From positions 84,329 to 148,328 of the IMG/VR virus record IMGVR_UViG_3300043446_003702: a DNA stretch of 64,000 nucleotides. One strand, given 5' to 3'. Shown one piece after another: positions 29,584 through 57,099 of this stretch. Source of the stretch: a virus. The notes under the pieces are model-generated. The model saw only the letters and a list, made by a program, of their open reading frames with translations. It was not told where the DNA came from and did not search any database. How positions within the stretch are numbered: position 1 is the first letter of the stretch; every line of letters starts with the position of its first letter. The translations under genes were made by a program, and so were the position numbers.

Positions 29584-29599
29584 CAATAAATAATCAACT

Positions 29600-31384: not shown

Positions 31385-31392
31385 ATAACAAC

Positions 31393-35512: not shown

Positions 35513-35543
35513 TCAGAGAACAACTACCCAGGGATGGGAAGTT

Positions 35544-35571
35544 CAAAAAACCCGCTGAGGCGGGTTTTTTG
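35544..35571 (+). terminator. Rho-independent terminator after gp23
   Basis: AAAAAACCCGC-TGAG-GCGGGTTTTTT. Confidence 0.85.
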
Positions 35572-35587
35572 TTGGCTAAGTATTGCC

Positions 35588-36448
35588 ATGAGCAGATGGA
35601 ACAATTTTTATAAAAACATTCGAGACCCCAGCTGGCCAGATTGTGCTAACGAACATGAGTTTACGACCCTACCTAAACATATACAGCATGAAATTCTAAA
35701 TAATTTTGGTGGCAGAGAATATGTTTACCTAACAACACAAGATCTATATCATTTGCCACTGAAATTGCCTGCTGATGATCTAGCCAGCAATGTTGATTAT
35801 GATTTGGAATTTTTAGTGGCCAACGATTTTGTTGTATATTACAATCACTCTATAGAAGGCGGTGGAATTGATATAGGGCAAAATTTTCCTAGAATTATTC
35901 GTTGCCTGTACCCTGACAGAATTTTTGAACACGGTATGGAATGGGCAGCCGGGCACGGTGCCATTGGTTTTAGATTGTTGGCAGATGGTATTTGTAAAAC
36001 CATGAACCTAGTAGAAAGCAACCAGTATGCAATAGATGCATGCAAAAAAACCATCAGCAACATGCCAGCAAGATTTCAAGGCACAGTTTCAGTATCTCAC
36101 ACAGACACACTGAAAACACTAGACAACAAATTACAATTTGATTTAATTGTAGCCAATCCACCAACGTTTAAAACTCATCTATATAATATCACCAATTTTG
36201 AACATGGCTCTATGCATGATTGGCATAGAATAAGTGTTGACAAAGACTGGCAAGCACATCAAGATTTTTTTTCTAATGTAAAAAAACACCTGTCGGCCAA
36301 TGGTGTAATCTTGTTACAAGAACAAAAATTTGGATCCAGTGTGTTTGAGTTTGAAAAATTTATTGTTGACAGCGGATTAAAAGTTGTGTCAGCTTTTTTT
36401 GAAAAATTCAATCAGTACACTTGGTATTTGGAATTAACTCACAAATAA
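35588..36448 (+). CDS. SAM-dependent methyltransferase (HemK/MTS-like, NPP motif) with a small N-terminal WPDC domain
   Basis: MEWAAGHGAIG (motif I), LVESN and FDLIVANPP. Start reassigned to 35588, 5 nt after TAAGTA. Confidence 0.75.
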   Translation: MSRWNNFYKNIRDPSWPDCANEHEFTTLPKHIQHEILNNFGGREYVYLTTQDLYHLPLKLPADDLASNVDYDLEFLVANDFVVYYNHSIEGGGIDIGQNFPRIIRCLYPDRIFEHGMEWAAGHGAIGFRLLADGICKTMNLVESNQYAIDACKKTISNMPARFQGTVSVSHTDTLKTLDNKLQFDLIVANPPTFKTHLYNITNFEHGSMHDWHRISVDKDWQAHQDFFSNVKKHLSANGVILLQEQKFGSSVFEFEKFIVDSGLKVVSAFFEKFNQYTWYLELTHK

Positions 36449-36449
36449 C

Positions 36450-37622
36450 CTAAACTTTGAACCAGCTGAGATACTGTTCTATTTTCTTTGTGACAGACGC
36501 CCAGTCACCCATCGACGGTTGTCGGAATATTCTCACAGTGGGATACCATGGACTTGAATCACGGTCCAACAACCAACGCCAATCAGTGGCAAACCACTGC
36601 AACATCAACCAAGTGGGTCTGCCCATGGCACCAGCCAGATGTGTGATGGCAGTGTCCACTGAGATCACCACATCCAAGCAATTGATCAAGGCTGCTGTGT
36701 CTGCAAAACTTTGAATGGTGCCAGGATAGCGTGTTACTCCTGCTGCTGCCAGTGCTTCATCTTCCTCGCCCGCAACGTCTACTTGCAGGTTGATCCACTC
36801 ATATTGTGGGTTGCGTCGTATGAGATCCAGCATGATCTCAAAAGGCACACCTTTGTGACGATTCAACCAGGCATCTCTGCGACCGGACCATGAAAAGCCA
36901 ACTCGCATGCGTGTTTTTGGACCCAGTCGCTTAAGCCAAGCAGAGGATTTGTCATGATCGGGTGATATGTACTGCACTGTTTTAGGCAAGTTATCTAGGG
37001 TCACACCCAACACACCGGGTAAACTCATGATGGGAATCCAGTAGTCAAATTCAGGAGGTTCATCGGTGTAGGTGCCTATCCATGATATGACCTGGCTGGT
37101 GGCCAGCATGGGAATCAAACCCAGGGTGGTTTGGAACAGTACTCGTGCGCCTGCAGCATGAAGATTGCCCAAAAATCTGCAGAACTGTATGTTGTCACCA
37201 TGACCCTGTTCACCTACCACCAGTATGGTTTTGCCTTTGAGATCCTCACCACTCCAGCGTGGTTGGCGGTGCTGAGGTTCTGTACCGGCTAGATGTTCAT
37301 ACTGCCAACGTGCTTCGTATGCTGGCCAACCACGAACATAGTCACCCATGATTAGATGGCTTACGGCCAGATTAAATCGAGCAGTGGCATTGTTGGGATC
37401 CAGTATGATGGCATGTTCCAAAAATGGTATACCACGTCGGGGTTGCCCACACTCACGTAACACATTGCCATAATTATTGAAAGCAGCAGCTGAGTCTGGG
37501 TCGTGGCACATGGCCAGCATGTAGCATTTGAGTGCTTGATCTGGACGATTTTCTCCGCGCAGTCGATTGCCTTCCTCAATGAGTCGAGCAGGATCTGTGA
37601 TTATTTCGTTTGTGGATTCCAT
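36450..37622 (-). CDS. TPR-repeat plus GT-B glycosyltransferase (GT9-like C-terminus)
   Basis: TPR helices (AAAFNNYGNVLRECG, ARFNLA), EQGHGDNIQFCRF, VGFSWSG and DVVISVDTAITHLAGAMGRPTW. Confidence 0.85.
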   Translation of the reverse strand: MESTNEIITDPARLIEEGNRLRGENRPDQALKCYMLAMCHDPDSAAAFNNYGNVLRECGQPRRGIPFLEHAIILDPNNATARFNLAVSHLIMGDYVRGWPAYEARWQYEHLAGTEPQHRQPRWSGEDLKGKTILVVGEQGHGDNIQFCRFLGNLHAAGARVLFQTTLGLIPMLATSQVISWIGTYTDEPPEFDYWIPIMSLPGVLGVTLDNLPKTVQYISPDHDKSSAWLKRLGPKTRMRVGFSWSGRRDAWLNRHKGVPFEIMLDLIRRNPQYEWINLQVDVAGEEDEALAAAGVTRYPGTIQSFADTAALINCLDVVISVDTAITHLAGAMGRPTWLMLQWFATDWRWLLDRDSSPWYPTVRIFRQPSMGDWASVTKKIEQYLSWFKV

Positions 37623-37682
37623 GGACATATTTACAGTATACACTCAGTAGTTAAAGATTTCAACCTCTTCATAAATATTTGT

Positions 37683-37738
37683 GACGCAATTCGGCGTCTT
37701 ATGCAGTGCTAACCCTCTGCGTAGCGGCTAGAACCCGC
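37683..37738 (+). promoter_or_regulatory. Three-hairpin structured 5' leader after late promoter CATAAATA (37670-37677)
   Basis: Stems GACGC/GCGTC, TATGCAG/CTGCGTA and GCGG/CCGC lie back to back before an AAGGAG SD. Confidence 0.5.
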
Positions 37739-37765
37739 ATTGGGCTTCTTTAAGGAGAAATCAAA

Positions 37766-38596
37766 ATGGGAAGAGCTCTCAAAATTGCAAAATACGGCAC
37801 CGCTCAAGGTGTAACATATCCAACGTCAACTTCAGTTAACCAACCTGCAGCCGCAGTCAATGTTGATGTTGGTTATCCCAACTTTGGATCTTTAACTGAT
37901 CCAGTATACAACGCACCTGTACAAACTCTTGATGCTGCACAATATCTTGGTGTTGTTGGTGGCAGTCCTGCCAGCAGTGTTGCAACTGCTACCAATCCGC
38001 AGATTGCCGCAGTAGTGAACATTGCATTGCAAGACGGTACCAGCACCACTGCTGGCGCCGGTCGCATCATCCGTCAAAAAGGTGCACACAAATTCTTGGT
38101 GGCTTACACAGCCAGCACCACAGCTGACGGTAGTTTTATTGTGGGACAAGCATATCAAATTGCTGTAGTGGGCACCACTGACTGGGCTGCTGCTGGCGCC
38201 AAAGGGAGTCCAGTGGCCGCTGGTGACATTTTTACTGCAACCAGCGTGGGCGGAGCAGGCACAGGTGAAGCATACCCAGTGGACATCTGTGTGTTGAGCA
38301 ACACTGCAACACCAGCTGCTGGTTACATGAGTATTGCTTACAGCACTGGTGACAGTTCAGCTGTTTACGCCAGCTACATCACCAACAAGTGGGTGCGTGA
38401 CTGGAATGGCATGACCTATGGTAACTATGCTGATACCAACTATGGTACTAACACTCAAAGCAGTGAAAACTACTATGCTGCCAACTTCTTCACAGACGAA
38501 GGCACAGTTACATGGAGTGGTGCAGAAATTGTCAACAGTGCTTATGCACAAAACGGCACAGTGCAATTGGCTCAAATTGCCAGCGTTACTTCTTAA
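37766..38596 (+). CDS. Virion structural protein (decoration-like)
   Basis: Ala/Thr/Gly-rich with an IIRQKGAHKFLV motif, strong SD and a late promoter. Confidence 0.6.
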   Translation: MGRALKIAKYGTAQGVTYPTSTSVNQPAAAVNVDVGYPNFGSLTDPVYNAPVQTLDAAQYLGVVGGSPASSVATATNPQIAAVVNIALQDGTSTTAGAGRIIRQKGAHKFLVAYTASTTADGSFIVGQAYQIAVVGTTDWAAAGAKGSPVAAGDIFTATSVGGAGTGEAYPVDICVLSNTATPAAGYMSIAYSTGDSSAVYASYITNKWVRDWNGMTYGNYADTNYGTNTQSSENYYAANFFTDEGTVTWSGAEIVNSAYAQNGTVQLAQIASVTS

Positions 38597-38611
38597 TTTG
38601 TAAAGTGTTAG

Positions 38612-38640
38612 AGTCCTCCCAGCTACATACTGGGAGGATT
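38612..38640 (+). promoter_or_regulatory. SD-sequestering hairpin/terminator with TACATA in the loop
   Basis: AGTCCTCCCAG-CTACATA-CTGGGAGGATT; the GGAGG of the next gene is in the 3' arm. Confidence 0.6.
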
Positions 38641-38644
38641 TCTT

Positions 38645-39232
38645 ATGAGTGCAGCATTTGTTTTGGGCAACGGCGTTAGCCGTTTGAGTGTTGATTTATC
38701 TGTGTTGAAACAGCGTGGGCGTGTGTACGGGTGCAACGCCTTGTACCGAGAATTTGCGCCAGATGTGTTGGTCAGTACCGACAAGGGCATAGCACATGCC
38801 ATACAACACACTGGATATGCACAACAGCATGTAATGTACACACGCAAACCTTTACCAGGGCTGGGTGCAAGATCAGTGCCGCAAAACTACTACGGATTCA
38901 GTTCAGGACCCATAGCAGTGGGCTTGGCAGCCCTGGATCAACATCTAGCAGTGTATCTCATAGGATTTGACATGGGGCCCACTGCTACCAATCGTTTCAA
39001 CAATGTGTATGCTGACACAGAATTTTATAAAAAAAGCTCGTCCAATCCCACGTTTACTGGCAACTGGGTGCGGCAACTAGTCACAATAGCCCGGGATTTC
39101 CCTACAACCAGTTTTCATCGAGTTGTTGGTGAATCAACAGCACAAATACAAGAGTTGCAGGGTATAAAAAACATGCAGCACATGGCCATGGCTGACTTCT
39201 TAGACCGTATAAATAACGTAAAGGATTTCTAA
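38645..39232 (+). CDS. Rossmann-like protein resembling Maf/MptE/sialyltransferase-like domains
   Basis: AFVLGNGVSR, YGCNALYR..PDVLVSTD, FSSG..A and VYLIGFDM. Confidence 0.55.
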   Translation: MSAAFVLGNGVSRLSVDLSVLKQRGRVYGCNALYREFAPDVLVSTDKGIAHAIQHTGYAQQHVMYTRKPLPGLGARSVPQNYYGFSSGPIAVGLAALDQHLAVYLIGFDMGPTATNRFNNVYADTEFYKKSSSNPTFTGNWVRQLVTIARDFPTTSFHRVVGESTAQIQELQGIKNMQHMAMADFLDRINNVKDF

Positions 39233-40705
39233 ATGAGTTCAGTCAAGCGTGTCAGTGGTGATTACACAATTGAAAGCGTCAATGCCACAGACGTTGTCAA
39301 CATAAATTCGCCCTTTGTCAATATCAACGGCAATCTCACTGTGAGTGGCAATGCTGTGCTGGTGGGCAACATCAATGCTGACAAGATTTTCAATGGCACA
39401 ACCAGCGTGGAAATCCCTGTAGCCAGCGGCAATGCCAATGTCACTGTGGGCGGTACATCCAATGTGGCAGTGTTTGCCACAACAGGTGTTTTTATAACTG
39501 GATTGGCCAGTGTCACTGGTAACGTACAAGGCGGCAACTTGCGCACTGCAGGGCTGATCTCTGCAACCGGCGCAGTAACTGGCAGCAATCTCAGTGCCAC
39601 TGGCAACATCATTGTCACACGAACCAGCAGCGCAACCAGTAATCCAATAATTCGATTCAATGACGCCAACACTGCTGTGACCACACTGGGTGCCAATATA
39701 GGTGGTGTTGAGTGGTTTACAAACGACAGTACCGGCGCAGGAGCCAGAGTAACAGCAAGAATTCGAGCAGTGTACGAAGATACCAACGGTAATGCCAACA
39801 TAGAGATTCAAACCGGCAGCACTGCCACACCCACTACAAGAATCACAGTGATTGGCAGTTCGGGCAACGTTGGCATTGCAAACTCAGCACCACTAGACAC
39901 ATTGGCTGTCACAGGTACCACATACATCAGTGGCAATGTGACCAGCGCAGCCAACATATCGGGTGCAAACTTGATCACAGGTGGCTTGGCCACTGTGACC
40001 GGCAACATTACCGGAGGCAATGTTCTCACTGCTGGTGTCATGAGCAGCACAGGCGATATCACTGGGGGCAACATCATTAGCCTAGGGGCTGTCAGCGCAG
40101 GTTCAGCAGGCATTACAGCCACAGGCAACGTGAGAGGCGGCAACGTCAACAGTGACAACTTGATTTCAGCAACCGGGAATGTCACTGGTGCCAACGTCAT
40201 TGCTGTGCAGAATATCAGCACCACAGGCAATGTGATCACTGCCAATATAAATGTCACTGGCAACAGCTACGGCAACGGTATTGGTGTAGAAAACATTGTA
40301 TGGCAACCCACCACAGTGGCATTCAACAGCTCAGTACAAGCCAATGTGGGTGTGTTGGGATTCTTGGCTCTGGCAGGTTATAGTTACAAATACGAAGCAT
40401 ATTTGCCTATATTGCCCGATGGTGGTACAACCACTGGATTCAGCACATACTTTGATGCAGGTACCTGTTACTACACTGTAGAAGCACAAACCACACAAAC
40501 AGCCGCATTTTCCACCAGTACCAGCAATGTGTCAGGTACAGCAGCGGCTACCCAGGTCATGACTGGAACCACGCCCAGAACCGTGAGAATTCAAGGCACA
40601 ATCTACAGTGCAGGTAACGCCAACTTGGCCATACAAGCACAGACCAGCGCAGCCAATATCAATATTCAATCAGGCGCCTATCTAACCTACACCAGAATCA
40701 GCTAA
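39233..40705 (+). CDS. Fibre-like virion protein with (A/V)TGN(I/V)TGGN repeats
   Basis: Asn/Gly/Thr repeats; GNVGIANSAP is a tail-fibre-like motif. Confidence 0.7.
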   Translation: MSSVKRVSGDYTIESVNATDVVNINSPFVNINGNLTVSGNAVLVGNINADKIFNGTTSVEIPVASGNANVTVGGTSNVAVFATTGVFITGLASVTGNVQGGNLRTAGLISATGAVTGSNLSATGNIIVTRTSSATSNPIIRFNDANTAVTTLGANIGGVEWFTNDSTGAGARVTARIRAVYEDTNGNANIEIQTGSTATPTTRITVIGSSGNVGIANSAPLDTLAVTGTTYISGNVTSAANISGANLITGGLATVTGNITGGNVLTAGVMSSTGDITGGNIISLGAVSAGSAGITATGNVRGGNVNSDNLISATGNVTGANVIAVQNISTTGNVITANINVTGNSYGNGIGVENIVWQPTTVAFNSSVQANVGVLGFLALAGYSYKYEAYLPILPDGGTTTGFSTYFDAGTCYYTVEAQTTQTAAFSTSTSNVSGTAAATQVMTGTTPRTVRIQGTIYSAGNANLAIQAQTSAANINIQSGAYLTYTRIS

Positions 40706-40755
40706 AACTGCAAACAAGTCCTTTTGGTAAATACACCAGAGGACATTGTAGATCT

Positions 40756-43700
40756 ATGGCACAACAGATTATTGACATTGGTGCAGCAGCAAATGACGGC
40801 ACTGGTGAACCGTTACGCGATGCATTTAACGCTGTAAATGAAAATTTCACTGAGATTTATACCGCTGGCCCTGTTGGCAGCAATGTTGTCATCTCTGGAA
40901 ACACCATCACAGTAACTGGTACCAACAACAACCTGGTACTGCGAGCCAATGGAATTGGCAATATCCAAGCAAATAGTTCAATCATGCCCAGTATTGATGC
41001 TGTGTATGATATTGGCGCCCCAACTCAACGAGTTGACACAGTCTATGCTGCCTATTTTGTAGGCAATGGTTCGGGCATTACCGGCATTACAACTGCTGGT
41101 ACCAGCATTGATTGGGGAACTAGCAATGTTAAAATTGTAAGTTCAGGTGGCAATGTCACAGTAAGTGTGGGCGGCACCAGCAATGTTGCTGTGTTTGGTG
41201 CAACTTCTTCAAATATACGAGCCAATTTGGCTGTGGGCAATCTTTCAACTGCGGGACAAATTTCCGCTACCAGTAATATCACAGGTGGCAACATCACAAC
41301 TGTGGGCTCGATCAGTGCCACAGGCAATGTTACAGGCAACTATATTTTTGGTAATGGTGCGCTGCTAACTGGTATCATTACCACAGTGGCCAATATCAAC
41401 AACGGCAACAGCAATGTAAGTATTTTAAATGCTGGCAGCAATGTCATAGTCAGCGTAAATGGCGTGTCAAACACAGTGGTGTTTGGACCAAGTGCCACAA
41501 CATTCTCAGGCAACATTGTTCCTGCAGCCAATAATGTATCCACACTGGGTACCAGTACACAACGATTTAAAAATATCTACCTGAGCGGCAACACAATCAC
41601 GCTTGGTGAGTCAACACTCACTGCTAATGCCGATGCCATAGTGTTGACCAATCCTGTTGGTGGTAGTTTTGTGGTACAAGGCACCAGTCAAAGTGACAGC
41701 ACTGCCATTACCAATGGCACCAGTAGAATGGCCATTCCTGTAGCCAATGCCAATGTGCAGATCAATGTAGGTGGAATTGCCAATGTGTTTGTGGTATCTA
41801 GCACTGGCATTCAAAGTGCTGGTAATATTCGGGCCAATAGTCAAATCAGTGCCGTTGGTAATATCATAACTGATGGATTCTTTGTGGGAACATTTGTTGG
41901 CAATGTCACTGGTAATATCAGTGTGCCAGGTGTCAACACACAAATACTTTACAATAACTTTGGCAATGCTGGTGCCAGTGCTGGATTTCGATTCAACAGT
42001 GTTGGTAATGTTCTCACACTCACTGGCAATGCTCAAGTTGGCAATGTCATAGCTACAGGCAATGTTTCTGGTGGATACATCTTAGGCAATGGCGCATTAC
42101 TCACCGGTATAGCTTCCAGTTACAGCAATGCCAATGTGGCAGTGTATTTGGCCAGCGGCACCAACACATCAAACATCATCACTACAGGCAACATTGCAGG
42201 CGGTAATTTATCTTTAACAGGTGCATTTGGTGCTGGTTCATTGAGCTCGTCAGGTAATGTCACTGGTGGGAATTTGCGCACTCTAGGTATTGTAAGTTCA
42301 GCAGGCAATATTGTCACTGATGGTTACTTTGTTGGTACTTTTGCAGGCAACATCACAGGTAATTTAACTGTACCGGGGTCAAACACACAGATCATTTATA
42401 ACAATGCTGGCAATGCTGGTGCCAGTGCTGGATTGAGATTTGACACAGCAGGTCCCAACTTGCTCACAGTCAATGGCAATATACAAACCATTGGCTTGTT
42501 GGCATCTGGCAATGTCTCAGCAGCCGGCAACATATTAGCAAACAATGTGGTCATAACTGGCCTGGTTAGTGCAGCAGGCAGCATATCAGCCACAGGCAAT
42601 GTCACCGGTGACAACATCAATACTGCTGGTCAAGTTGTGGCTACTGATACCATCGCTGGTGGTAATCTACTCACAGGTGGATTGATTTCGTCCACAGGTT
42701 CTATAACATCGGCAGCCAACATTACAGGTGCCAATGTCATTACTGCTGGGTCAGTCAGCGCCGGTGGTGATGTTAGTTTGGTAGGCAATGTGGATGGTGG
42801 AAATATTCGCGCAGTTGGTGTGGTCTCTGCAACTGGCAATGTCACCGGCAACAACATCAATGCTGTGGGATTGAGTCTCAGTGGCAATGTAATATCAGCA
42901 TTGAACAGCACAGCCGCTGTCAATACCACGGCCAACATCACAGGTGGTAATGTAAATGCAACAATCAATGTCAACGCCACAGGGGATATCAGCGCCACAG
43001 GCAATGTCACTGGTGCAAATCTCATTGGTACTTTAGCAACGGCTACACAACCAAATATCACTTCAGTTGGTACGTTAAGCAGCCTTTCAGTAACAGCCAA
43101 TGTTAATGGCGGGAACTTACGCACTACTGGTTCAATTAGTGCCACAGGCAATATCACTGGTGGCACTATCAATACCACATTAGTCAGCGCCACTGGCAAT
43201 GTATTGGCCAGTGTATTGAGCGCATCAGGAAATGTCACTGGTGGTAATTTAAATACAGCAGGTGCAGTAGTTGCAACTGGTAACGTAAACACTCTGGCCA
43301 ATGTCAACGGTGTCAACTTGGCCGCATCTGGATTGATCACAGCAGTAGGCAACATCTCTGGTGGCAACTTGATCACTGCCGGTGCAATAAGTGCTGCCAG
43401 TGTGAGTTCTTCGGGCAATATCACCGGCGGAAACATACTTGGCGGGGCAAATGTCAATGCAACCACACACACCGGTACCACAGTTTCAGTGACTGGCAAT
43501 ATCACTGGTGGTAATCTAAATGCTGCAGGATTGAGTTTGAGCAGCAACGTGGTTTCTGCTGTAAACGTTTCTGGCAATATTGCGGGCAGCAATGTCACTA
43601 CTCCGGGACTGATATCTGCAACTGGTAATATCACTGGCGGCAACATCATTTCTGTAGCAGCTATCAGTGCAGCCACTGTGACCACAACAGGCAATGCCAT

Positions 43701-45918
43701 TGTTGGTGGTGATTTAATTGTCAATGGAAATCTTAGTTACAACAACGTAACCAGTTTCAATGTTGAAGATCCAATCATCGGTTTGGGGCGCGGTGCCAAC
43801 AATACACCTTTGGTCAGCAACGATGGCAAAGATCGTGGTGAACAACTTTATTATTATGCAGCCAGCGAAAAATCTGCGTTTGTTGGCTACCAAAATAGCT
43901 CAGGTAACATCATTGCAGCCACAGATGTTAGTATTGCCAATGAAATAGTCACAGTCAACACTTATGGCACATTTGTAGTAGGCACCTTGGCAGGTACAGC
44001 AGTTTCAGTAACTGGTAATGTCACTGGCGGTAATATCAACACTGGGGGTGCAGTGTCAGCCACCGGTAATGTAACAGGTGGCAACATCAACACAGGGGCA
44101 CAAGTAGTGGCCACTGGCAATATAACTGGCAGTAATTTAAATGCTGCTGGATTGAGCCTAAGTTCAAATGTTGTGTCAGCATTCAATGTTACGAGCAATA
44201 TTGCTGGCGGCAATATCAAAACCCCTGGAATAATTTCTGCAGCAGGTAATATCACCGGCAACTACTTCATTGGCAACGGATCACAGCTGACTGGTGTCAT
44301 TGCTACTGGTATTGGTATACTGTCTAGTTTGAGTGTAACTGGCAATATCATCACTGGCAATTTGAGTTCTTTGGGTGCTGTCAGCGCAACCAGCAACATT
44401 GTTGGTGGCAATATCACTACGCCTGGACTGATATCTGCAACTGGCAATGTTACTGGTGGCAATATCATTTCTGTAGCGGTAGTCAGTGCCGCATCAGTGA
44501 GCACAACAGGCAATGTCACTGGAGGTAACCTTGTAACTGCTGGTGCCATAAGCGCCGCTTCAATTTCGGCAAGTGGCAACATCACCGGTGGTAATGTCTT
44601 GGGCGGTGCCAATGTCAATGCCACAACTCATACAGGTACCACAGTGTCAGTAACCGGTAATATCACCGGTGGTAATGTTTTGGGCGGTGCCAATGTCAAT
44701 GCCACAACTCATACAGGTACCACAGTGTCAGTAACCGGTAATATCACCGGTGGTAACATTGTAACTGCTGCTGCTGTGAGTGCTGCTTCGGTGTCGGCAT
44801 CGGGCAATGTCACAGGTGGCAATTTGGTCACTGGTGGAATTATCACAGCCACAGGCAACATTGTATCAGGTTCACTAATTTCAGCAGCGGGCAATGTGTC
44901 AGCCGCAGGCAATGTTTTTGCTCAATATGTTTTTGGTAATCTAGTCGGAAGTATAACTTTATCCAGTTCGGCCAACAGTCAGGTATTGTTTGATCAAAAT
45001 GGTGTCATTGCTGGTGACTCTGGATTGGTATTTGATTATGCAGCCAACGCACTCACAGTAGGCGGAGCCATAGTAACCACAAACGGTGGCGACCTGACTG
45101 TGGCTGGTTCAGCCACAGTTATTGGCAATATCTCAAGCACCATTGGTAATATTGGCGGCGGCAACATCCTGGCTACAACTTTGCTCAGTTCAGGCGGCAA
45201 CATCATAGGTGCCAACATTAACACAGCTGGTCTAATCAGTGCTACCGGTAACATAACTGGTGGTAATATCAGATCAGGCGGGTCGGCCAGCATCAGCGGC
45301 AACGTTATCAGTGGTAACTTGACCACAGGCGGTGTAGTAACAGCAACAGGTAATGTCACAGGTGGCAACATCAACACAGCAGGATTGGCCAGCGTTAGTG
45401 GTAATGTCATAGGTGGTAATTTAAGCACAGCCGGATTGATCACATCCACCGGTAATGTCACAGGTGGCAACATCAACACAGGGGCACAAGTAGTGGCCAC
45501 TGGCAATATAACCGGCGGCAACATACTCACTGCTGGTGTAATCTCGGCCACCGGCAACATCACCGGCGGCAACTTGAGTGGCACCAGCATTGTGGGCACA
45601 TTGACCACAGCGGCTCAAAACAACATCACTTCAGTGGGTACACTGAGCAGTTTGAGTGTAACGGGCAATGTAGATGGTGGCAATCTGCGCACCGCTGGCC
45701 TGATCAGTGTCACCGGCAATGTCACCGGCGGCAATTTGAACGCTGTGGGATTGAGTCTCAGTGGCAACGTGCTCAGCGCAATCAACATGACAGCAAATAT
45801 AACAACCACAGCCAACATCAGTGCCAACAATATCAACGCTACAACCGCGATAAATATCAACAACGCCAGGGTAGCAACCATAGATGACGCGGCTGCATTG
45901 GCAATAGCATTAGGATAA
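40756..45918 (+). CDS. Long fibre protein (1720 aa) with TGNITGGN repeats and chlorovirus glycoprotein-like repeats
   Basis: N-terminal IDIGAAANDGTGEPLRDAFNAVNENFTEIY (T4 gp9/10-like anchor), NYFIGNGSQLTG-type repeats and a C-terminal AAALAIALG. Confidence 0.8.
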   Translation: MAQQIIDIGAAANDGTGEPLRDAFNAVNENFTEIYTAGPVGSNVVISGNTITVTGTNNNLVLRANGIGNIQANSSIMPSIDAVYDIGAPTQRVDTVYAAYFVGNGSGITGITTAGTSIDWGTSNVKIVSSGGNVTVSVGGTSNVAVFGATSSNIRANLAVGNLSTAGQISATSNITGGNITTVGSISATGNVTGNYIFGNGALLTGIITTVANINNGNSNVSILNAGSNVIVSVNGVSNTVVFGPSATTFSGNIVPAANNVSTLGTSTQRFKNIYLSGNTITLGESTLTANADAIVLTNPVGGSFVVQGTSQSDSTAITNGTSRMAIPVANANVQINVGGIANVFVVSSTGIQSAGNIRANSQISAVGNIITDGFFVGTFVGNVTGNISVPGVNTQILYNNFGNAGASAGFRFNSVGNVLTLTGNAQVGNVIATGNVSGGYILGNGALLTGIASSYSNANVAVYLASGTNTSNIITTGNIAGGNLSLTGAFGAGSLSSSGNVTGGNLRTLGIVSSAGNIVTDGYFVGTFAGNITGNLTVPGSNTQIIYNNAGNAGASAGLRFDTAGPNLLTVNGNIQTIGLLASGNVSAAGNILANNVVITGLVSAAGSISATGNVTGDNINTAGQVVATDTIAGGNLLTGGLISSTGSITSAANITGANVITAGSVSAGGDVSLVGNVDGGNIRAVGVVSATGNVTGNNINAVGLSLSGNVISALNSTAAVNTTANITGGNVNATINVNATGDISATGNVTGANLIGTLATATQPNITSVGTLSSLSVTANVNGGNLRTTGSISATGNITGGTINTTLVSATGNVLASVLSASGNVTGGNLNTAGAVVATGNVNTLANVNGVNLAASGLITAVGNISGGNLITAGAISAASVSSSGNITGGNILGGANVNATTHTGTTVSVTGNITGGNLNAAGLSLSSNVVSAVNVSGNIAGSNVTTPGLISATGNITGGNIISVAAISAATVTTTGNAIVGGDLIVNGNLSYNNVTSFNVEDPIIGLGRGANNTPLVSNDGKDRGEQLYYYAASEKSAFVGYQNSSGNIIAATDVSIANEIVTVNTYGTFVVGTLAGTAVSVTGNVTGGNINTGGAVSATGNVTGGNINTGAQVVATGNITGSNLNAAGLSLSSNVVSAFNVTSNIAGGNIKTPGIISAAGNITGNYFIGNGSQLTGVIATGIGILSSLSVTGNIITGNLSSLGAVSATSNIVGGNITTPGLISATGNVTGGNIISVAVVSAASVSTTGNVTGGNLVTAGAISAASISASGNITGGNVLGGANVNATTHTGTTVSVTGNITGGNVLGGANVNATTHTGTTVSVTGNITGGNIVTAAAVSAASVSASGNVTGGNLVTGGIITATGNIVSGSLISAAGNVSAAGNVFAQYVFGNLVGSITLSSSANSQVLFDQNGVIAGDSGLVFDYAANALTVGGAIVTTNGGDLTVAGSATVIGNISSTIGNIGGGNILATTLLSSGGNIIGANINTAGLISATGNITGGNIRSGGSASISGNVISGNLTTGGVVTATGNVTGGNINTAGLASVSGNVIGGNLSTAGLITSTGNVTGGNINTGAQVVATGNITGGNILTAGVISATGNITGGNLSGTSIVGTLTTAAQNNITSVGTLSSLSVTGNVDGGNLRTAGLISVTGNVTGGNLNAVGLSLSGNVLSAINMTANITTTANISANNINATTAININNARVATIDDAAALAIALG
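44581..44756 (+). repeat. 81-bp in-frame tandem duplication within the fibre gene
   Basis: Units start at 44581, 44662 and (partial) 44743, with one mismatch between the full copies. Each encodes ITGGNVLGGANVNATTHTGTTVSVTGN. Confidence 0.9.
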
Positions 45919-45921
45919 CAA

Positions 45922-46254
45922 ATGGCAAATACCTTTACACGAAAAACTTCACAAAACATTGGCGCAACAGCTGATCAAATTGGGTCATATACAGTACCAG
46001 CAGCCACAACAACTATTGTGATTGGCTTGGTTTGTACCAATACAACAGGCAGTGCCATAACAGCCAACGTGTACCTGGCCAACGCAACAGCCAACACTTA
46101 CATAGTGGCCAATGCACCCATAAGTTCTGGCGCATCGCTGATTCCTGTGGGGGGTGATCAAAAGATAGTAATGATTACTGGGGACAAAATGTATGTGCAA
46201 AGCAGTGCCGCATCCAGCATTGATACAGTAATGAGCATAATGGAAATCACTTAA
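45922..46254 (+). CDS. Small virion/fibre-associated protein
   Basis: MANTF...YTVPAATTTIVIGL..N...KIVMITGDKMYV is typical of phage fibre clusters. Confidence 0.7.
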   Translation: MANTFTRKTSQNIGATADQIGSYTVPAATTTIVIGLVCTNTTGSAITANVYLANATANTYIVANAPISSGASLIPVGGDQKIVMITGDKMYVQSSAASSIDTVMSIMEIT

Positions 46255-49200
46255 TGTCATATCTAGGTCTTCAACCCAATACACCACTGCTGAATACCAG
46301 CACTCAATTTTTGAGTGGCAACGCAGTAGCAACCCAATTTACCCTGAGTAGATCAGTTGCCAGCGCCAGTGACATTGACGTCATGATCGGCAGCACGTTG
46401 AAGATTCCATTTACCGATTACACAGCTGGCAATGTCTCATTGCAATTTACCACACCACCAGCCGCTGGCAGCAACAACATCGCAGTCACATATCGAGCAG
46501 GGGCTCTAAATAGCCTTGATCTCACAGCATCAGTGTTCAATGCTGGCACAGCAGCAGCACCCAGTGTGGTAAGCCTAGCAGCCAACAACACTGGTTTATA
46601 CTGGGCCAATGCCAGTTCAATGAGTGTGACAGTGAGTGGCGCGGATCGTGTGACATTCAATGCCAATGCAACTTCAGTCAGCAATGTCACAGGTGCTGTG
46701 GTTGTATACGGCGGGGCTGGCATTGGCGGCAATATCACAGTGAGTGGAACAGCTAACATAACAGACACTACCGAAAGCAGTAGTATCACCACTGGCAGTT
46801 TTAAAACAGCAGGTGGCGCTGGCATTGTGGGCAACTTAAATGTGGGCGGAGACATCACTTGCGTAGGTGACTTTACTGTAAATGGAACATTTACCACCAC
46901 AGGGACAGACAGTTTGGCTGTTACTGATCCATTTATTTTCTTGGCACAAAATAATCCTGGCGATACCTATGATTCTGGAGTAATCTCACAGTATTTTGAT
47001 GGCGCCAACACTCGTTACACCGGCTATTTCCGCGACGTCACAGACGCAAAATATAAGTTGTTCACCAACTTGTTGACAGCGCCTACCACAACAGTTGACA
47101 CTACAGATCCCAGTTTTCAGTACACTGACTTGCAATTAGCCAATGTAAGTGCCACGGGCAATGTATCAGGTACATACTTTATTGGCAATGGCAGTCAACT
47201 CACAGGCATTGCCGGCCTTAGCAGCAGCAACATTTTTCTCGGCAACACATCAGTTGTAATTCCTGCCACCAACGGCAATGTCAATGCTGTAATCAACAGT
47301 GTGCAAATAGCCAACATTTGGTCAGGCGGAATCAGCGTAGTTGGCGCAGTGGCAGCCAGCACCACAGTGAGTGCTACTGGCAATATCACAGGTGGTAACC
47401 TACTTACTGGCGGGCTAATAAGTGCCACAGGCAACGTAACATCAGCAGCAAATGTGTCTGCCGCCAATGTAGTCACTGGAGGATTACTCACAGCCACTGG
47501 TAATGTCACAGGCGGTAATGTCAACACAGCAGGTGTAGTATCTGCAGGTGGCAATGTAAACGGTGGCAATGTTCGAACTGTTGGATTGATGTCAGCCACA
47601 GGCGATGTTTACGGCAACAATCTAATTGCTACTGCAAATATCAACGCCAGCTTAGATGTCAGCGCCACAGCCAATGTAGTTGGTGGAAACATATTGACTG
47701 GTGGAATGGTGTCTGCAACTGGCAACATCACAGGCGGCAATATTATTGGCACGCTGGTAAGCACTACACTGTCTGTCTCAGGGAACATCACCGGCGGTAA
47801 CATTATTGGTACAACAACAATAACAACAGCTGGAAATGTCACAGGTGGAAATTTAATTACCGCTAATTTAATACAAGGTGCTACACTAAGTGCCACAGGC
47901 GCTGTTACCTTCTCAGGCACAACTCAAAACATCAATCTTGGAAGCAGTCAAACCACTGGCAACGTGGTTATTGGTGCAGCCAGCCAAACTGGGTTTATTC
48001 AAATTGGTCAATCAACCGCCAGTCAAACGGTCAATATTGCCAATGGTGTCACAGGCACAGGCAACACCAAAGCTGTAAACATTGGCACTGGTGGAACAGC
48101 AGGTTCTACAACGACCATTGCCATTGGACCAGTCACAGCCACTACAGCCTCTGCCACAGCTACATTTAACTCAGCAACCTTGGTATCTATTGCCAACACT
48201 GGAGCATCAGCACTGAGTGTAGCCGGCAATGTTACGGGTGCAAATATCAACACTGGTGGAGCAATGTCGGCAACCGGCAGCATCACTGGCGGCAATTTGT
48301 TATTTGGATCAGGTCAGGTGTCTGGCACTGGCAATATCACAGGCGGAAATGTTTTGTATGGTGCAGGCATTGTGAGTGGTACCGGCAGTGTATTGGGCAG
48401 TGTTGTCAGCGCCAGCGGCAATGTCACTGGTGGCAATTTGTTATTTGGATCAGGTCAAGTATCCGGAACCGGCAATATATCAGGCGGCAATATACTCTCT
48501 GCTGGCATTGTAAGTGCAGTGGGCAATATCACTGCCAACGGTGTATCAAACATATCTGGCGGCAACATTATTGGCACACATGTGGGCAATGTGACTGGTG
48601 CTACCACAATATCAGCATCAGGCAACATCACTGGCGGTAATTTGAATGCTGCCGGTTTGAGTCTAAGTTCTAACGTGGTTTCGGCCTTGGCCACCACGGC
48701 CAATATCACAGGATCAAATATCATAGCCACAGCAGCCATGAGTGCTGCCAGCGTCAGTGCGTCGGGCAACATCACTGGGGGCAATGTGTTTGGTGGTGCC
48801 AATGTCAATGCCACAAGTTTAACTGGTACCACTGTGTCAGTGTCAGGCAACATCACTGGGGGCAATGTGTTGGGTGGTGCCAATGTCAATGCCACTACTC
48901 ATACTGGCGCCACTGTGTCAGTGTCAGGCAATATTAATGCGGCAAACGTAATTGTTAGTGGAACAGCCGCAGCAGGATCGGCTGTGTTGATTGTATCGGG
49001 CAACATTCAAACCACCGCAGCCAACAACACAGCCAACATTGGCAACGTTACAAATTACTTCAACACTGTGCACGCCAAAGCCACCACAGCACAGTACGCT
49101 GACTTGGCAGAATGGTATGAAGCAGATGCTGATTACAAACCAGGCACTGTGTTGATTTTTGGAGGTGATCGAGAAGTCACTGTGGCCACCCATGTGGCTG

Positions 49201-49469
49201 ATCAGCGAGTGGCCGGGGTGGTCAGTACCAATCCTGCACACATTATGAATTCGGGACTCAAAGCACAGCACGTTGCGGCAGTGGCTTTGACAGGTCGCGT
49301 TCCTACCGAAGTTGTGGGATCAGTAACCAAAGGCGATATGATGGTGTCAGCCGGCGGCGGTCGTGCCATGGCTTGTGCAGAACCACGAATTGGCACAGTG
49401 ATTGGCAAAGCCTTGCAGGATCATCCAGGTGGGACTGGCATAATTGAAATTGTTGTGGGAAGATTATAA
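46254..49469 (+). CDS. Fibre protein with TGNITGGN repeats and a C-terminal intramolecular-chaperone (peptidase G2-like) domain
   Basis: YADLAEWYEAD..YKPGTVLIFGG..EVT...VAGVVSTNPAHIMN...VALTGRVP...GTVIGKAL. Confidence 0.8.
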   Translation: MSYLGLQPNTPLLNTSTQFLSGNAVATQFTLSRSVASASDIDVMIGSTLKIPFTDYTAGNVSLQFTTPPAAGSNNIAVTYRAGALNSLDLTASVFNAGTAAAPSVVSLAANNTGLYWANASSMSVTVSGADRVTFNANATSVSNVTGAVVVYGGAGIGGNITVSGTANITDTTESSSITTGSFKTAGGAGIVGNLNVGGDITCVGDFTVNGTFTTTGTDSLAVTDPFIFLAQNNPGDTYDSGVISQYFDGANTRYTGYFRDVTDAKYKLFTNLLTAPTTTVDTTDPSFQYTDLQLANVSATGNVSGTYFIGNGSQLTGIAGLSSSNIFLGNTSVVIPATNGNVNAVINSVQIANIWSGGISVVGAVAASTTVSATGNITGGNLLTGGLISATGNVTSAANVSAANVVTGGLLTATGNVTGGNVNTAGVVSAGGNVNGGNVRTVGLMSATGDVYGNNLIATANINASLDVSATANVVGGNILTGGMVSATGNITGGNIIGTLVSTTLSVSGNITGGNIIGTTTITTAGNVTGGNLITANLIQGATLSATGAVTFSGTTQNINLGSSQTTGNVVIGAASQTGFIQIGQSTASQTVNIANGVTGTGNTKAVNIGTGGTAGSTTTIAIGPVTATTASATATFNSATLVSIANTGASALSVAGNVTGANINTGGAMSATGSITGGNLLFGSGQVSGTGNITGGNVLYGAGIVSGTGSVLGSVVSASGNVTGGNLLFGSGQVSGTGNISGGNILSAGIVSAVGNITANGVSNISGGNIIGTHVGNVTGATTISASGNITGGNLNAAGLSLSSNVVSALATTANITGSNIIATAAMSAASVSASGNITGGNVFGGANVNATSLTGTTVSVSGNITGGNVLGGANVNATTHTGATVSVSGNINAANVIVSGTAAAGSAVLIVSGNIQTTAANNTANIGNVTNYFNTVHAKATTAQYADLAEWYEADADYKPGTVLIFGGDREVTVATHVADQRVAGVVSTNPAHIMNSGLKAQHVAAVALTGRVPTEVVGSVTKGDMMVSAGGGRAMACAEPRIGTVIGKALQDHPGGTGIIEIVVGRL

Positions 49470-49861
49470 TGAGTTATTTAGGCAATTCACCGCAGATCGG
49501 GCAGTACCGTAAAATGGACAATCTCACCTTCAATGGGGTGACACAAACTTTTGCTATCACTATCAGTGGGGTGCCGTTTAACCCGCCTACTTCCTATGCC
49601 ATGATGGTGAGTTTGAACAACGTAATTCTCAATCCTGGGGTTGATTTTTCTATCTCTGGCAGCACTATTAGTTTTGCTTCGCCACCAGCAGCATTGACAC
49701 CTTTCTTTGGCTTGTTGTTCGGAGACACACTATATACAGGCACACCCAGCGATGCCACAGTTACCAACAGTAAAATTGCAGCAGGCACAATCAATTACGA
49801 CCGGTTCAGCACCAACACGCAGGCAACATTGACTGCGAATCAAATCATATTTGGAGTTTAA
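49469..49861 (+). CDS. Small fibre-associated structural protein
   Basis: MSYLGNSP...FNGVTQTF...VSLNNVILNPGVDFSISGSTISFASPP; the N-terminus resembles that of the upstream gene. Confidence 0.7.
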   Translation: MSYLGNSPQIGQYRKMDNLTFNGVTQTFAITISGVPFNPPTSYAMMVSLNNVILNPGVDFSISGSTISFASPPAALTPFFGLLFGDTLYTGTPSDATVTNSKIAAGTINYDRFSTNTQATLTANQIIFGV

Positions 49862-57061: not shown

Positions 57062-57099
57062 ATTATATTTATAGTACTTTGGGTTTACCTTGATCCGGG

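What the first reader, a model, noticed from the sequence alone, without database searches (positions are those of the whole stretch)
35588..49861. Candidate phage-encoded virion glycosylation system: TPR-glycosyltransferase beside fibres packed with N-x-S/T sequons
Seen: right after the capsid gene come a methyltransferase, a TPR plus GT-B glycosyltransferase and a Maf/sialyltransferase-like Rossmann protein, all with late-type promoters. Three fibre genes follow, whose repeat unit (GNITGGN, GNVTG, GNVSA, VNATT) carries an N-x-S/T sequon in most copies; a hand count gives roughly 70 in the 1720-aa fibre. Two fibres also carry GN(V/I)(T/S)GxY(F/I)xGNGxxLTG units. Known: this unit resembles the chlorovirus Vp260 glycoprotein repeat, and cytoplasmic GT-B enzymes with helical N-domains (HMW1C/OGT, GT41) glycosylate N-x-S/T in repetitive adhesins. 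Inference: the phage may glycosylate its own fibres and decorate the glycan, possibly using the radical SAM, PLP, SGNH and sulfotransferase-like enzymes elsewhere in the window. Caveats: Asn ladders of beta-solenoids and the high N/S/T content inflate sequon counts, and the GT looks GT9-like rather than clearly GT41.
Basis: partly seen in the sequence, partly recalled or inferred. Interest (0 to 1): 0.8.

Follow-up and report, generated by a model that had tools for sequence, protein, structure and literature searches.

The report
Late phage FlmG-like glycosyltransferase beside fibres
An uncultured freshwater T4-like giant phage carries, between its capsid gene and its repeat-rich fibre genes, a late-expressed enzyme built like the bacterial enzymes that put sugars on flagellin; it may sugar-coat phage particle proteins, but the many Asn-x-Ser/Thr motifs in the fibres come from the fibre repeat itself and are not a sign of N-glycosylation.

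Summary
The genes and repeats are real. The reading is only partly right.

**The enzyme.**
- The minus-strand gene 36450-37622 encodes three TPR pairs plus a GT-B domain (AF2 pLDDT 94).
- The catalytic fold is GT9-like (Z 16-19 to heptosyltransferases and TibC). It is not GT41.
- The whole protein aligns (E 8e-34) with the Caulobacterales TPR-GT that sits beside flbT-flaF-flagellin, the FlmG position.
- It has the same late-box, leaderless start as the portal gene.

**The sequons.**
- The 1720-aa fibre has 76 N-x-S/T against 53 expected. Other i/i+2 residue pairs in this 17-residue repeat deviate as much or more.
- The +2 Ser/Thr is no better conserved than other Ser/Thr.
- A 99%-complete relative with no such enzyme has equally sequon-rich fibres.

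**The neighbours.**
- The methyltransferase is variable cargo of an insertion hot spot.
- The "Maf-like" gene (38645-39232) has only sub-threshold support.

**Best reading (about 0.4).** A late, FlmG-like protein O-glycosyltransferase that acts on virion proteins. Target and sugar are unknown.

This scan has noted similar phage TPR-GT9 genes on other DNA before.

The parts
34316..35512 (+). Major capsid protein (gp23 type). It marks the left border of the region.
   Evidence: Pfam PF07068, 3.5e-96. It is 86-100% identical in related loci.
35534..36448 (+). Accessory methyltransferase. It is MTS/HemK-like with an NPPT motif, so an amino-methyltransferase type and not a sugar O-methyltransferase type.
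   Evidence: Pfam PF05175, 3e-8; NCBIfam PrmC-like, weak. It is present in only about 10 of 80 related loci. The same slot elsewhere holds a homing endonuclease, a desaturase, radical SAM genes, or nothing.
36450..37622 (-). TPR + GT9-fold (FlmG-like) glycosyltransferase, 390 aa from the ATG at 37622. The open frame reaches a GTG at 37643.
   Evidence: Pfam TPR families plus PF01075 at 30.9 bits (cut-off 22). AF2 pLDDT 94. VIA Z 18.8/17.7/17.3/16.4 to GT9 3tov, WaaF, WaaC and TibC. BLASTP 8e-34 to the FlmG-position protein of a Caulobacterales genome. The database gene call is 390 aa.
37628..37635 (-). Late-type box TGTAAATA, 5 nt before the GT start codon (a leaderless architecture).
   Evidence: The TAAATA core and its spacing are conserved in 12 related loci. 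The same box + 4-7 nt + ATG architecture occurs at the portal gene and at two other genes in the window.
37670..37677 (+). Late-type box CATAAATA for the gene at 37766.
   Evidence: The TAAATA core is invariant in 12 loci.
37678..37765 (+). Conserved 5' leader of about 85 nt with hairpins and a strong AAGGAG ribosome-binding site.
   Evidence: Alignment A3 shows long invariant blocks and paired changes in the stems.
37766..38596 (+). Ala/Thr/Gly-rich 276-aa protein of unknown fold. It is highly variable between relatives, is probably an abundant late virion protein, and is a candidate acceptor.
   Evidence: No Pfam, PHROG or NCBIfam family. 28-72% identity across loci whose neighbours are far more conserved. 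The Atlas gave no usable hit.
38645..39232 (+). 195-aa protein with an N-terminal GNGxS...CN motif. It is a weak candidate for a Cst-II/Maf-like (GT42/MptE-like) sugar transferase.
   Evidence: PHROG 30607, function unknown. Atlas lead to PF01973 at 0.90. The only PDB profile hits are Cst-II-type sialyltransferases, E about 0.1, residues 1-36. PF01973 itself does not match. Pelagiphage homologues lie among replication and recombination genes. It is present in the relative that lacks the GT.
39208..39215 (+). Exact late box TATAAATA, 17 nt before the 490-aa fibre gene.
39233..40705 (+). Fibre protein, 490 aa. It is S/T/N-rich with few canonical repeats.
   Evidence: 14 sequons against 12.6 expected. 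Syntenic in related loci.
40756..45918 (+). Fibre protein, 1720 aa, with a 17-residue repeat. It has 19 GN(I/V)TGGN copies and 4 Y(F/I)xGNGxxLTG units.
45922..46254 (+). Small conserved 110-aa protein between the fibres.
   Evidence: PHROG 1276, function unknown. 68-94% identical in related loci.
46254..49469 (+). Fibre protein, 1071 aa, with the same repeat family. Its C-terminal domain (about 929-1068) is shared with fibre or virion proteins of PA5oct-like and CP220-like phages.
49469..49861 (+). 130-aa protein matching the N-terminal module of tail-fibre and virion structural protein families.
   Evidence: PHROG 18673, tail fiber protein, 2.5e-26.

Best explanation
The minus-strand gene 36450-37622 encodes an active, late-expressed protein glycosyltransferase of the FlmG type. 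By analogy with FlmG, a short N-terminal TPR module (three helix pairs) would hold a protein acceptor. A GT9-fold GT-B domain would transfer a sugar from a nucleotide sugar to Ser/Thr hydroxyls.

The most likely acceptors are the phage's own late surface proteins made at the same time. These are the Ser/Thr-rich repeat fibres and/or the variable 276-aa protein transcribed divergently from the same 122-bp promoter region.

**What is shown**
- The fold, the family relationship and the conserved motifs.
- The late-type promoter architecture.
- Vertical conservation of the gene in a large subclade.

**What is inferred**
- That the acceptor is a protein, which protein it is, the O-linkage, and the donor sugar.

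The N-x-S/T motifs of the fibres are a by-product of the 17-residue repeat and play no demonstrable part.
For: **Fold and family**
- AF2 on a 117-sequence alignment gives pLDDT 94 and pTM 0.92. Residues 11-107 form TPR helices; two Rossmann lobes follow.
- Residues 125-390 superpose on GT9 enzymes at Z 16-19 and rmsd about 3 A over 235-250 residues.
- Pfam PF01075 passes its cut-off on the DTxxxHLAGAxG donor motif. The same motif aligns with WaaC.
- The N-lobe EQGxGD motif and the C-lobe D-T-x3-H motif are at least 90% conserved in 117 homologues at 31-85% identity.

**Link to FlmG**
- The whole protein, residues 21-386, aligns at E 8e-34 with a 600-aa TPR-GT. That gene lies divergent from flbT (PF07378), flaF (PF07309) and flagellin genes in a Caulobacterales genome.
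- Homologues of about 600 aa lie 2-3 kb from flagellin genes in 4 of 6 such genomes checked.
- FlmG is a TPR (acceptor-binding) + GT-B (donor-specific) flagellin O-glycosyltransferase (PMC7591256; bioRxiv 10.1101/2022.03.25.485807).

**Late expression**
- The architecture of TAAATA box, 5 nt, then ATG is conserved in 12 loci.
- The portal gene and other late genes in the window share it.

**Conservation**
- 244 IMG/VR stretches encode it. All 80 loci examined keep the order capsid-GT-276aa-195aa-fibres.
- 47 of 54 loci anchored on the 195-aa gene have it.

**Independent lineages**
- Homologues lie between the capsid and adaptor genes, with a methyltransferase and a GT8, in a podovirus.
- In another podovirus they lie next to a DegT aminotransferase and the terminase.
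- In cyanophage BUCT-ZZ01 they lie among tail-fibre genes.
- In S-SRM01 they lie after the baseplate, fibre and RCC1 genes, and are followed by sulfotransferase, GT and epimerase genes.
- The S-SRM01 protein is a full-length structural twin (TM 0.81).

**Sugar supply and precedent**
- The phage genome also encodes sugar-nucleotide tailoring enzymes: a 4,6-dehydratase/epimerase-family enzyme, DegT, an FkbM methyltransferase and radical SAM enzymes.
- Virion glycoproteins were reported for Xanthomonas jumbo phage XacN1 (PMC5852040). Its MCP was not compared here.
Against: - No chemistry is available, and no acceptor is identified.
- The gene lies in an insertion hot spot between the capsid gene and the 276-aa gene, and is inverted relative to its neighbours. 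Its position next to the fibres therefore carries less weight.
- A 99%-complete relative lacks it but keeps the fibres, the 195-aa gene and the DegT gene. It is therefore dispensable for making these fibres, and it is not the only outlet of the glycan cassette.
- The other phages with homologues do not have this fibre repeat.
- In bacteria the family is huge, with 38,895 cluster representatives including giants with up to six tandem copies. It has no conserved neighbour, so a protein acceptor cannot be generalised.
- The GT9 enzymes with the best fold scores are LPS heptosyltransferases.
- The FlmG identification rests on synteny, length and architecture. It was not compared with the C. crescentus reference sequence.
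Confidence: 0.4

Rival explanations
1. One reading: the enzyme N-glycosylates Asn in the N-x-S/T sequons of the fibres, in the manner of HMW1C/GT41 cytoplasmic N-glycosyltransferases.
For: - There are 76 sequons in the 1720-aa fibre against 53 expected, and 36 against 25 in the 1071-aa fibre.
- The TPR + GT-B architecture resembles OGT/SPINDLY, which top the Foldseek list by E-value.
Against: - No GT41 Pfam match.
- The catalytic domain fits GT9 at Z 16-19 and rmsd about 3 A. OGT fits at Z 11-14 and rmsd about 13 A.
- The sequon excess is ordinary among i/i+2 residue pairs of the repeat.
- The +2 Ser/Thr is not preferentially conserved.
- The same excess is found without the enzyme, including in a 99%-complete genome with no homologue.
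- The 490-aa fibre shows no excess.
Confidence: 0.05
2. The enzyme glycosylates a host protein (flagellin, pilin or another surface or cytoplasmic protein) or a non-structural phage protein. This could, for example, change the infected cell's surface or motility. The virion would not be the target.
For: - Its nearest characterised relatives act on flagellin.
- It is inverted cargo in a hot spot.
- It is dispensable in a close relative with the same fibres.
- Aquatic T4-like phages gather host-surface-related genes near their fibre genes. This last point rests on general knowledge, not on a test made here.
Against: - The late, leaderless promoter architecture is shared with the portal gene. That timing is odd for host takeover or superinfection exclusion.
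- Homologues recur inside structural modules of unrelated phages.
- The TPR region is much shorter than that of the FlmG-position proteins: about 100 aa against about 300.
Confidence: 0.2
3. The enzyme acts on a non-protein acceptor, such as LPS core, another glycan or a small molecule. This would match classical GT9 heptosyltransferases. The TPR module would serve complex formation only.
For: - The best fold matches are LPS heptosyltransferases and an uncharacterised GT9.
- Pfam and NCBIfam hits are to heptosyltransferase models.
- Bacterial homologues have no conserved protein partner.
Against: - Only 32 residues match PF01075.
- The full-length alignment is to the FlmG-position protein, not to WaaC or WaaF.
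- Fusions of TPR to GT-B are typical of protein-directed enzymes such as FlmG, OGT and SPY.
Confidence: 0.12
4. The gene is decaying or neutral hot-spot cargo with no present function.
For: - It lies in a variable slot beside a homing-endonuclease-bearing region.
- It is absent from some relatives.
Against: - The frame is intact in all 80 loci examined (of 244 matching stretches), at 51-90% identity, with the catalytic motifs conserved.
- The promoter box is conserved.
- The protein is very abundant in metagenomes: more than 5,500 relatives, with the top 120 at 76-100% identity.
Confidence: 0.03

Closest known systems
FlmG (FlbA) of Caulobacter/Brevundimonas, a flagellin O-glycosyltransferase (PMC7591256; bioRxiv 10.1101/2022.03.25.485807)
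   Same: - Same architecture: N-terminal TPR, then a GW..YE.R linker, then a GT-B domain with the EQGxGD and DT..H..A motifs and a PWYP...F tail.
- End-to-end alignment with the protein in the FlmG genomic position (E 8e-34, 26% identity).
- The expected working principle is that TPR binds the acceptor protein and GT-B sets the donor.
   Different: - The phage protein has about 100 aa of TPR instead of about 300.
- It lies in a phage structural region with no flagellin.
- No NeuB or CMP-sugar synthetase (pseudaminic/legionaminic acid pathway) was found in the 148-kb fragment.
- Bacterial multi-copy TPR-GT proteins are closer (36-43% identity) than the FlmG-position proteins (26-33%).
- The reference FlmG sequence itself was not compared.
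GT9 LPS heptosyltransferases (WaaC 2h1f, WaaF 1psw) and GT9 3tov
   Same: - Best structural matches of the catalytic domain: Z 17-19, rmsd about 3 A.
- The shared donor-site motif passes the PF01075 cut-off.
- The position of the N-lobe GD Asp corresponds to the heptosyltransferase catalytic base. This is an inference from the alignment and the fold.
   Different: - Sequence similarity is limited to about 30-85 residues (E 0.1 against the PDB).
- GT9 enzymes have no TPR and act on lipid A-core.
- The donor here is unknown.
Bacterial autotransporter heptosyltransferases TibC/AAH (PMC4358343)
   Same: - GT9-related catalytic fold (Z 16.4).
- They are cytoplasmic enzymes that O-glycosylate Ser in repetitive adhesin passenger domains. 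This is the closest functional analogy to decorating a repeat fibre.
   Different: - The defining N-terminal beta-barrel and the four-Cys iron finger are absent. TPR takes the place of the barrel, and Cys occurs only at residues 33, 39, 58, 148 and 315.
- The beta-hairpin thumb was not examined.
- No evidence of a dodecamer.
GT41 enzymes (OGT, SPINDLY, XcOGT) and HMW1C
   Same: TPR + GT-B architecture. These enzymes head the Foldseek list by E-value.
   Different: - No PF13844 match.
- The superposition is poor: TM about 0.3, rmsd 13-17 A.
- Nothing supports N-x-S/T specificity.
Phage and giant-virus virion glycosylation (virion glycoproteins of Xanthomonas jumbo phage XacN1, PMC5852040; chlorovirus and mimivirus systems, PMC4691112)
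   Same: Virus-encoded soluble glycosyltransferases next to structural genes. XacN1 virions contain glycoproteins.
   Different: Those enzymes belong to other families. No published phage case with a FlmG-like TPR-GT was found in my literature searches.

Membership tests
FlmG-type TPR + GT-B protein O-glycosyltransferases | N-terminal TPR domain fused to a C-terminal GT-B domain | tested here: met
   Pfam TPR families on residues about 27-110. The AF2 model shows 6 TPR helices followed by two Rossmann lobes.
FlmG-type TPR + GT-B protein O-glycosyltransferases | Sequence homology to FlmG across the linker and the GT domain | tested here: met
   BLASTP E 8e-34 over residues 21-386 to the 600-aa TPR-GT divergent from flbT-flaF-flagellin in a Caulobacterales genome. 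Similar hits lie next to flagellin genes in 4 of 6 genomes. Caveat: orthology to C. crescentus FlmG is inferred from synteny, length and architecture, not from the reference sequence.
FlmG-type TPR + GT-B protein O-glycosyltransferases | Flagellin acceptor; gene in a flagellar or nonulosonic-acid gene context | tested here: not met
   The context is a phage structural module. No NeuB (PF03102) or CMP-sugar synthetase (PF02348) in the 148-kb record, which is only 43% complete.
FlmG-type TPR + GT-B protein O-glycosyltransferases | O-linkage of a sugar to Ser/Thr of a protein | not testable with these tools
   Needs mass spectrometry or an enzyme assay.
CAZy GT9 / Pfam PF01075 heptosyltransferases | Match to the family model above the curated cut-off | tested here: met
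   30.9 bits against a cut-off of 22, but only residues 313-344 (model positions 174-205 of 247) match.
CAZy GT9 / Pfam PF01075 heptosyltransferases | GT9 fold of the whole catalytic domain | tested here: met
   VIA Z 18.8 (3tov), 17.7 (1psw) and 17.3 (2h1f), with rmsd 2.9-3.2 A over 235-250 residues.
CAZy GT9 / Pfam PF01075 heptosyltransferases | ADP-heptose donor and lipid A-core acceptor | not testable with these tools
Heptose-pathway genes were not searched for. PF00483 gave no match in the fragment.
BAHT (TibC/AAH) | Four-Cys iron-finger insertion in the C-lobe | tested here: not met
   Cys occurs only at residues 33, 39, 58, 148 and 315, with no cluster. The feature is as defined in PMC4358343.
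BAHT (TibC/AAH) | N-terminal beta-barrel domain | tested here: not met
   In the model the N-terminus is an all-helical TPR.
GT41 (OGT/SPY/HMW1C-like) | Match to the GT41 catalytic domain model | tested here: not met
   No PF13844 among the hits at E up to 0.1. PDB sequence hits to OGT and SPY cover the TPR only. The catalytic domain alone gives no OGT hit.
GT41 (OGT/SPY/HMW1C-like) | Structural fit of the catalytic domain | tested here: inconclusive
   OGT and XcOGT give Z 11-14 but rmsd about 13 A, with TM about 0.3. GT9 fits clearly better.
Maf / MptE-like (PF01973) or GT42 sialyltransferase, for the 195-aa gene 38645-39232 | Match to the family model or to a solved member | tested here: inconclusive
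   PF01973 gives no match, either by hmmscan at E up to 0.1 or in a search of the phage record at E up to 10. Profile against the PDB: all seven hits are sialyltransferases, six Cst-II-type and one LOS alpha-2,3-sialyltransferase, at E 0.1-0.2 on residues 1-36. The Atlas feature lead to a PF01973-bearing cluster scores 0.90.
Chlorovirus glycoprotein repeat (PF06598) | Match above the curated cut-off (27 bits) | tested here: not met
   22.4, 19.7 and 19.1 bits at the Y(F/I)xGNGxxLTG units of the two fibres. A 26.9-bit match lies in another gene outside the window.

The most novel reading that the evidence does not exclude
Abundant freshwater T4-like jumbo phages may use a late, leaderless-expressed FlmG-like O-glycosyltransferase to coat their own fibres and/or a variable capsid-associated protein. 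A miniature Cst-II/Maf-like enzyme may contribute. The sugar would be heavily tailored by the phage's own radical-SAM, aminotransferase and methyltransferase cassette. This would amount to a phage 'virion glycocalyx' that tunes adsorption or shields the particle. The same TPR-GT module recurs in unrelated aquatic phages.
Probability: 0.25. Interest if true: 0.75.

Novelty: new variant of a known kind. Interest (0 to 1): 0.45.

Why it matters
Glycosylation of phage structural proteins has been shown for very few phages, and none uses this enzyme type. Here a FlmG-like enzyme is fixed in hundreds of contigs of an abundant freshwater phage lineage. It has the same late promoter architecture as the portal gene.

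If it decorates virions, it would extend protein O-glycosylation by TPR-GT enzymes from flagella to phage particles. It would also give a first functional handle on a very large uncharacterised bacterial family, with about 39,000 cluster representatives and proteins carrying up to six tandem copies.

The negative result matters too. High N-x-S/T counts in Asn/Ser/Thr-rich repeat fibres should not be read as evidence of N-glycosylation. In this lineage they occur equally without the enzyme.

Tried and rejected
- **Single-sequence AF2 of the GT** gave pLDDT 39 and was useless. It was replaced by a 117-sequence alignment.
- **PDB sequence searches with the catalytic domain.** The domain alone found nothing meaningful. 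A small profile reached only WaaC at E 0.1.
- **Conserved bacterial neighbours.** A search of 80 genome loci found none apart from paralogues.
- **tblastn of the fibres against cultured phages** matched only the C-terminal domain of the 1071-aa fibre; the repeats gave no match.
- **PDB search with 441 aa of repeat** found no solved relative.
- **The 276-aa protein** matched no family, and the Atlas model was poor.
- **The third homologous-protein search**, on the 195-aa protein, returned only close relatives without Pfam labels.
- **The commonest hot-spot cargo**, a 360-aa family, has no Pfam or PDB match.
- **Phage-encoded nonulosonic-acid pathway.** No NeuB or CMP-sugar synthetase was found in the held fragment. 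There was also no NTP_transferase and no GT2.
- **The sigma-70-like site before the GT** was rejected as the main promoter. Only the TAAATA core is conserved in distant loci.
- **Strict coupling of the GT to the glycan cassette** was rejected. The GT-less 99%-complete relative keeps the DegT gene.

Full report
**Setting.** The window is bases 84329-148328 of a 148-kb IMG/VR contig, about 43% of a genome. It belongs to an uncultured T4-like jumbo phage. Pfam identifies a Gp20 portal, an S77 prohead protease, the Gp23 capsid protein, a T4 baseplate protein and a gp15-like tail-sheath stabiliser. Related contigs reach 343-361 kb.

The gene order in the finding is as follows.
- Capsid, 34316-35512.
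- Methyltransferase, 35534-36448.
- TPR-glycosyltransferase, 36450-37622, on the minus strand.
- A 276-aa protein, 37766-38596.
- A 195-aa protein, 38645-39232.
- Fibres of 490, 1720 and 1071 aa, with small genes between them.
- A 1318-aa virion structural protein.

**Observation check.**
- The fibre repeat is real. It has a 17-residue period and a consensus near (V/I)SATGN(V/I)TGGN(I/L)xTAGx.
- The 1720-aa fibre has 76 N-x-S/T; shuffles give 52.9 (z 3.9). The 1071-aa fibre has 36 against 25. The 490-aa fibre has 14 against 12.6.
- The longer GN..Y(F/I)xGNGxxLTG units are present, three plus one. The chlorovirus glycoprotein-repeat model matches them, but below its cut-off.
What it called Maf-like must be the 195-aa gene.

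**The enzyme.**
- Pfam finds TPR repeats and a 32-residue match to GT9 above the cut-off. It finds no GT41.
- A 117-sequence alignment gave an AF2 model with pLDDT 94. It shows three TPR pairs and then a GT-B domain.
- An all-against-representatives structural search puts GT9 enzymes first for residues 125-390: 3tov Z 18.8, WaaF 17.7, WaaC 17.3 and TibC 16.4. OGT-type enzymes follow at Z 11-14 with rmsd about 13 A.
- Foldseek ranks SPINDLY and OGT first by E-value, because of the shared TPR + GT-B layout. Their TM is only about 0.3, against 0.50-0.55 for GT9.
- The family is enormous in bacteria: 38,895 cluster representatives, some with up to six tandem copies. NCBI names members 'tetratricopeptide repeat-containing glycosyltransferase family protein'.
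- It has no conserved neighbour in 80 loci.

**Link to FlmG.**
- In Caulobacterales genomes the phage GT domain finds a single open frame of about 600 aa, at 28-34% identity.
- That frame lies 2-3 kb from flagellin genes in four of the six genomes checked.
- In one genome it is divergent from flbT, flaF and two flagellin genes. That is the known place of flbA/flmG. It aligns with the phage protein from the last TPRs to the C-terminus (E 8e-34).
- FlmG binds flagellin through its TPR domain and sets donor specificity through its GT-B domain (PMC7591256; bioRxiv 10.1101/2022.03.25.485807).
- The two BAHT hallmarks examined are absent: the beta-barrel and the four-Cys iron finger (PMC4358343).

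**Expression.**
- The 122-bp divergent region holds two conserved TAAATA boxes.
- One is followed by an 85-nt conserved hairpin leader and a strong ribosome-binding site for the 276-aa gene.
- The other lies 5 nt before the GT start codon.
- The same layout of box, 4-7 nt, then ATG precedes the portal gene and two other genes in the window.
- The GT therefore very probably belongs to the late class, on a leaderless mRNA.
- No such box precedes the methyltransferase or the 195-aa gene.

**Are the sequons meaningful?** Four tests say no.
1. Among i/i+2 residue pairs in the 1720-aa fibre, N-x-S/T (z 3.7) is unremarkable. G-x-I/L gives z 10.7, T-x-N 4.7, V-x-G 4.7 and S-x-S/T 3.8. 47 of the 76 sequons are simply GN(I/V/L)(T/S) of the repeat.
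2. Across six orthologues the +2 Ser/Thr is kept at 0.60-0.75, against 0.61-0.81 for other Ser/Thr.
3. Loci anchored on the 195-aa gene show the GT in 47 of 54 cases. Fibres downstream of GT-less loci have observed/expected sequons of 1.37, against 1.45 with the GT.
4. One GT-less relative is a 345-kb, 99%-complete genome with no homologue anywhere; the positive control gave E 3e-170. Its fibre has 5.5 sequons per 100 aa (z 5.2) and eight GN(I/V)TGGN copies.

**The neighbours.**
- The slot between the capsid gene and the GT is an insertion hot spot. It is empty in about 9 of 31 loci. Elsewhere it holds the methyltransferase, a GIY-YIG homing endonuclease, a fatty-acid desaturase, radical SAM genes or unknowns. 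The methyltransferase is therefore not a conserved partner.
- The 195-aa protein has a conserved N-terminal GNGxS...YGCN motif. Its profile hits only sialyltransferases in the PDB, six Cst-II-type and one LOS alpha-2,3 enzyme, and weakly (E about 0.1, 36 residues). A language-model lead points to PF01973, but the model itself does not match.
- Its pelagiphage homologues lie among replication and recombination genes.

**Comparative support for a virion-directed role.** Homologues in four other phage lineages lie in or beside structural modules, with sugar enzymes.
- In a podovirus: capsid ... TPR-GT, methyltransferase, GT8, adaptor.
- In another podovirus: GT, methyltransferase, DegT, terminase.
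- In BUCT-ZZ01: tail fibre, BNR protein, GT, VrlC-like protein.
- In S-SRM01: baseplate, fibre and RCC1 genes, then TPR-GT, oxygenase, sulfotransferase, GT and epimerase.

None of these phages has this fibre repeat.

The present genome also carries sugar-nucleotide tailoring genes about 40 kb upstream of the window: a radical SAM enzyme, a dehydratase/epimerase, DegT and FkbM. The GT-less relative keeps the DegT gene.

**Verdict.** The most likely reading is a late, FlmG-like protein O-glycosyltransferase acting on virion surface proteins (confidence about 0.4).

| Rival reading | Confidence |
|---|---|
| Host or non-structural protein target | 0.2 |
| Non-protein acceptor | 0.12 |
| N-glycosylation of the sequons | 0.05 |

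The scan has flagged similar phage TPR-GT9 genes on other DNA before. Those notes are not independent evidence.

Noticed in passing
window 37678-37765: The 5' leader of the 276-aa gene is about 85 nt long and highly conserved across 12 related loci. It has three hairpins, and some stem positions change in pairs. It ends in a strong AAGGAG site. This could be a regulatory or stabilising RNA element for an abundant late protein.
   Followed up: partly
window 29585-29592, 31380-31387, 5773-5780 (-), 57066-57073 (-), 37628-37635 (-): Late-type (N)ATAAATA boxes lie only 4-7 nt before ATG start codons of the portal gene and several other genes. Many late mRNAs of this phage may therefore be leaderless.
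   Followed up: partly
related loci, between the capsid gene and the GT (e.g. L024:8895-9656, L061:3966-4847, L053:11155-11931, L077:4480-5910): The capsid-GT junction is an insertion hot spot. Its cargo includes a GIY-YIG/NUMOD3 homing endonuclease, a fatty-acid desaturase, two kinds of radical SAM enzyme, the methyltransferase and a widespread 360-aa unknown. It is empty in about a third of the loci.
   Followed up: partly
G000:C1:42276-51899 (locus L172:6276-15899), outside the window: A sugar-nucleotide tailoring cluster: a radical SAM enzyme, an NAD-dependent 4,6-dehydratase/epimerase, a DegT aminotransferase, four unknowns and an FkbM methyltransferase. A ThyX gene is next to it. Its product and target are unknown. 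The DegT gene is retained in a relative that lacks the TPR-GT.
   Followed up: partly
proteins P0121-P0270: Bacterial giant proteins of 1,100-3,100 aa carry two to six tandem copies of the same TPR + GT9-fold module, at 31-43% identity to the phage domain. The family has about 39,000 cluster representatives and, apart from FlmG, appears uncharacterised.
   Followed up: no
window 49038-49457 (residues 929-1068 of the 1071-aa fibre): The C-terminal domain of this fibre is shared (34-42% identity) with virion or fibre proteins of Pseudomonas PA5oct-like, Campylobacter CP220-like, Agrobacterium Atu_ph07 and Sinorhizobium jumbo phages. It begins with a ..DLAEWY.. motif that suggests an autoproteolytic or chaperone module.
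   Followed up: no
L084:6001-6846 and L180:2995-3825: Homologues of the 195-aa protein in Pelagibacter myophages Mosig and HTVC008M are longer (276-281 aa, with a large insertion). They lie among replication and recombination genes (gp59-like, uvsY, uvsW) and not beside fibres.
   Followed up: no
PDB 7wff chain a: A subunit of the Arabidopsis NDH-PSI supercomplex matches the GT9-fold domain as well as TibC does (Z 16.4). It is a non-enzymatic or repurposed GT9-like fold in chloroplasts.
   Followed up: no
I found no sequence evidence tying them to sugars or to the GT.
   Followed up: partly
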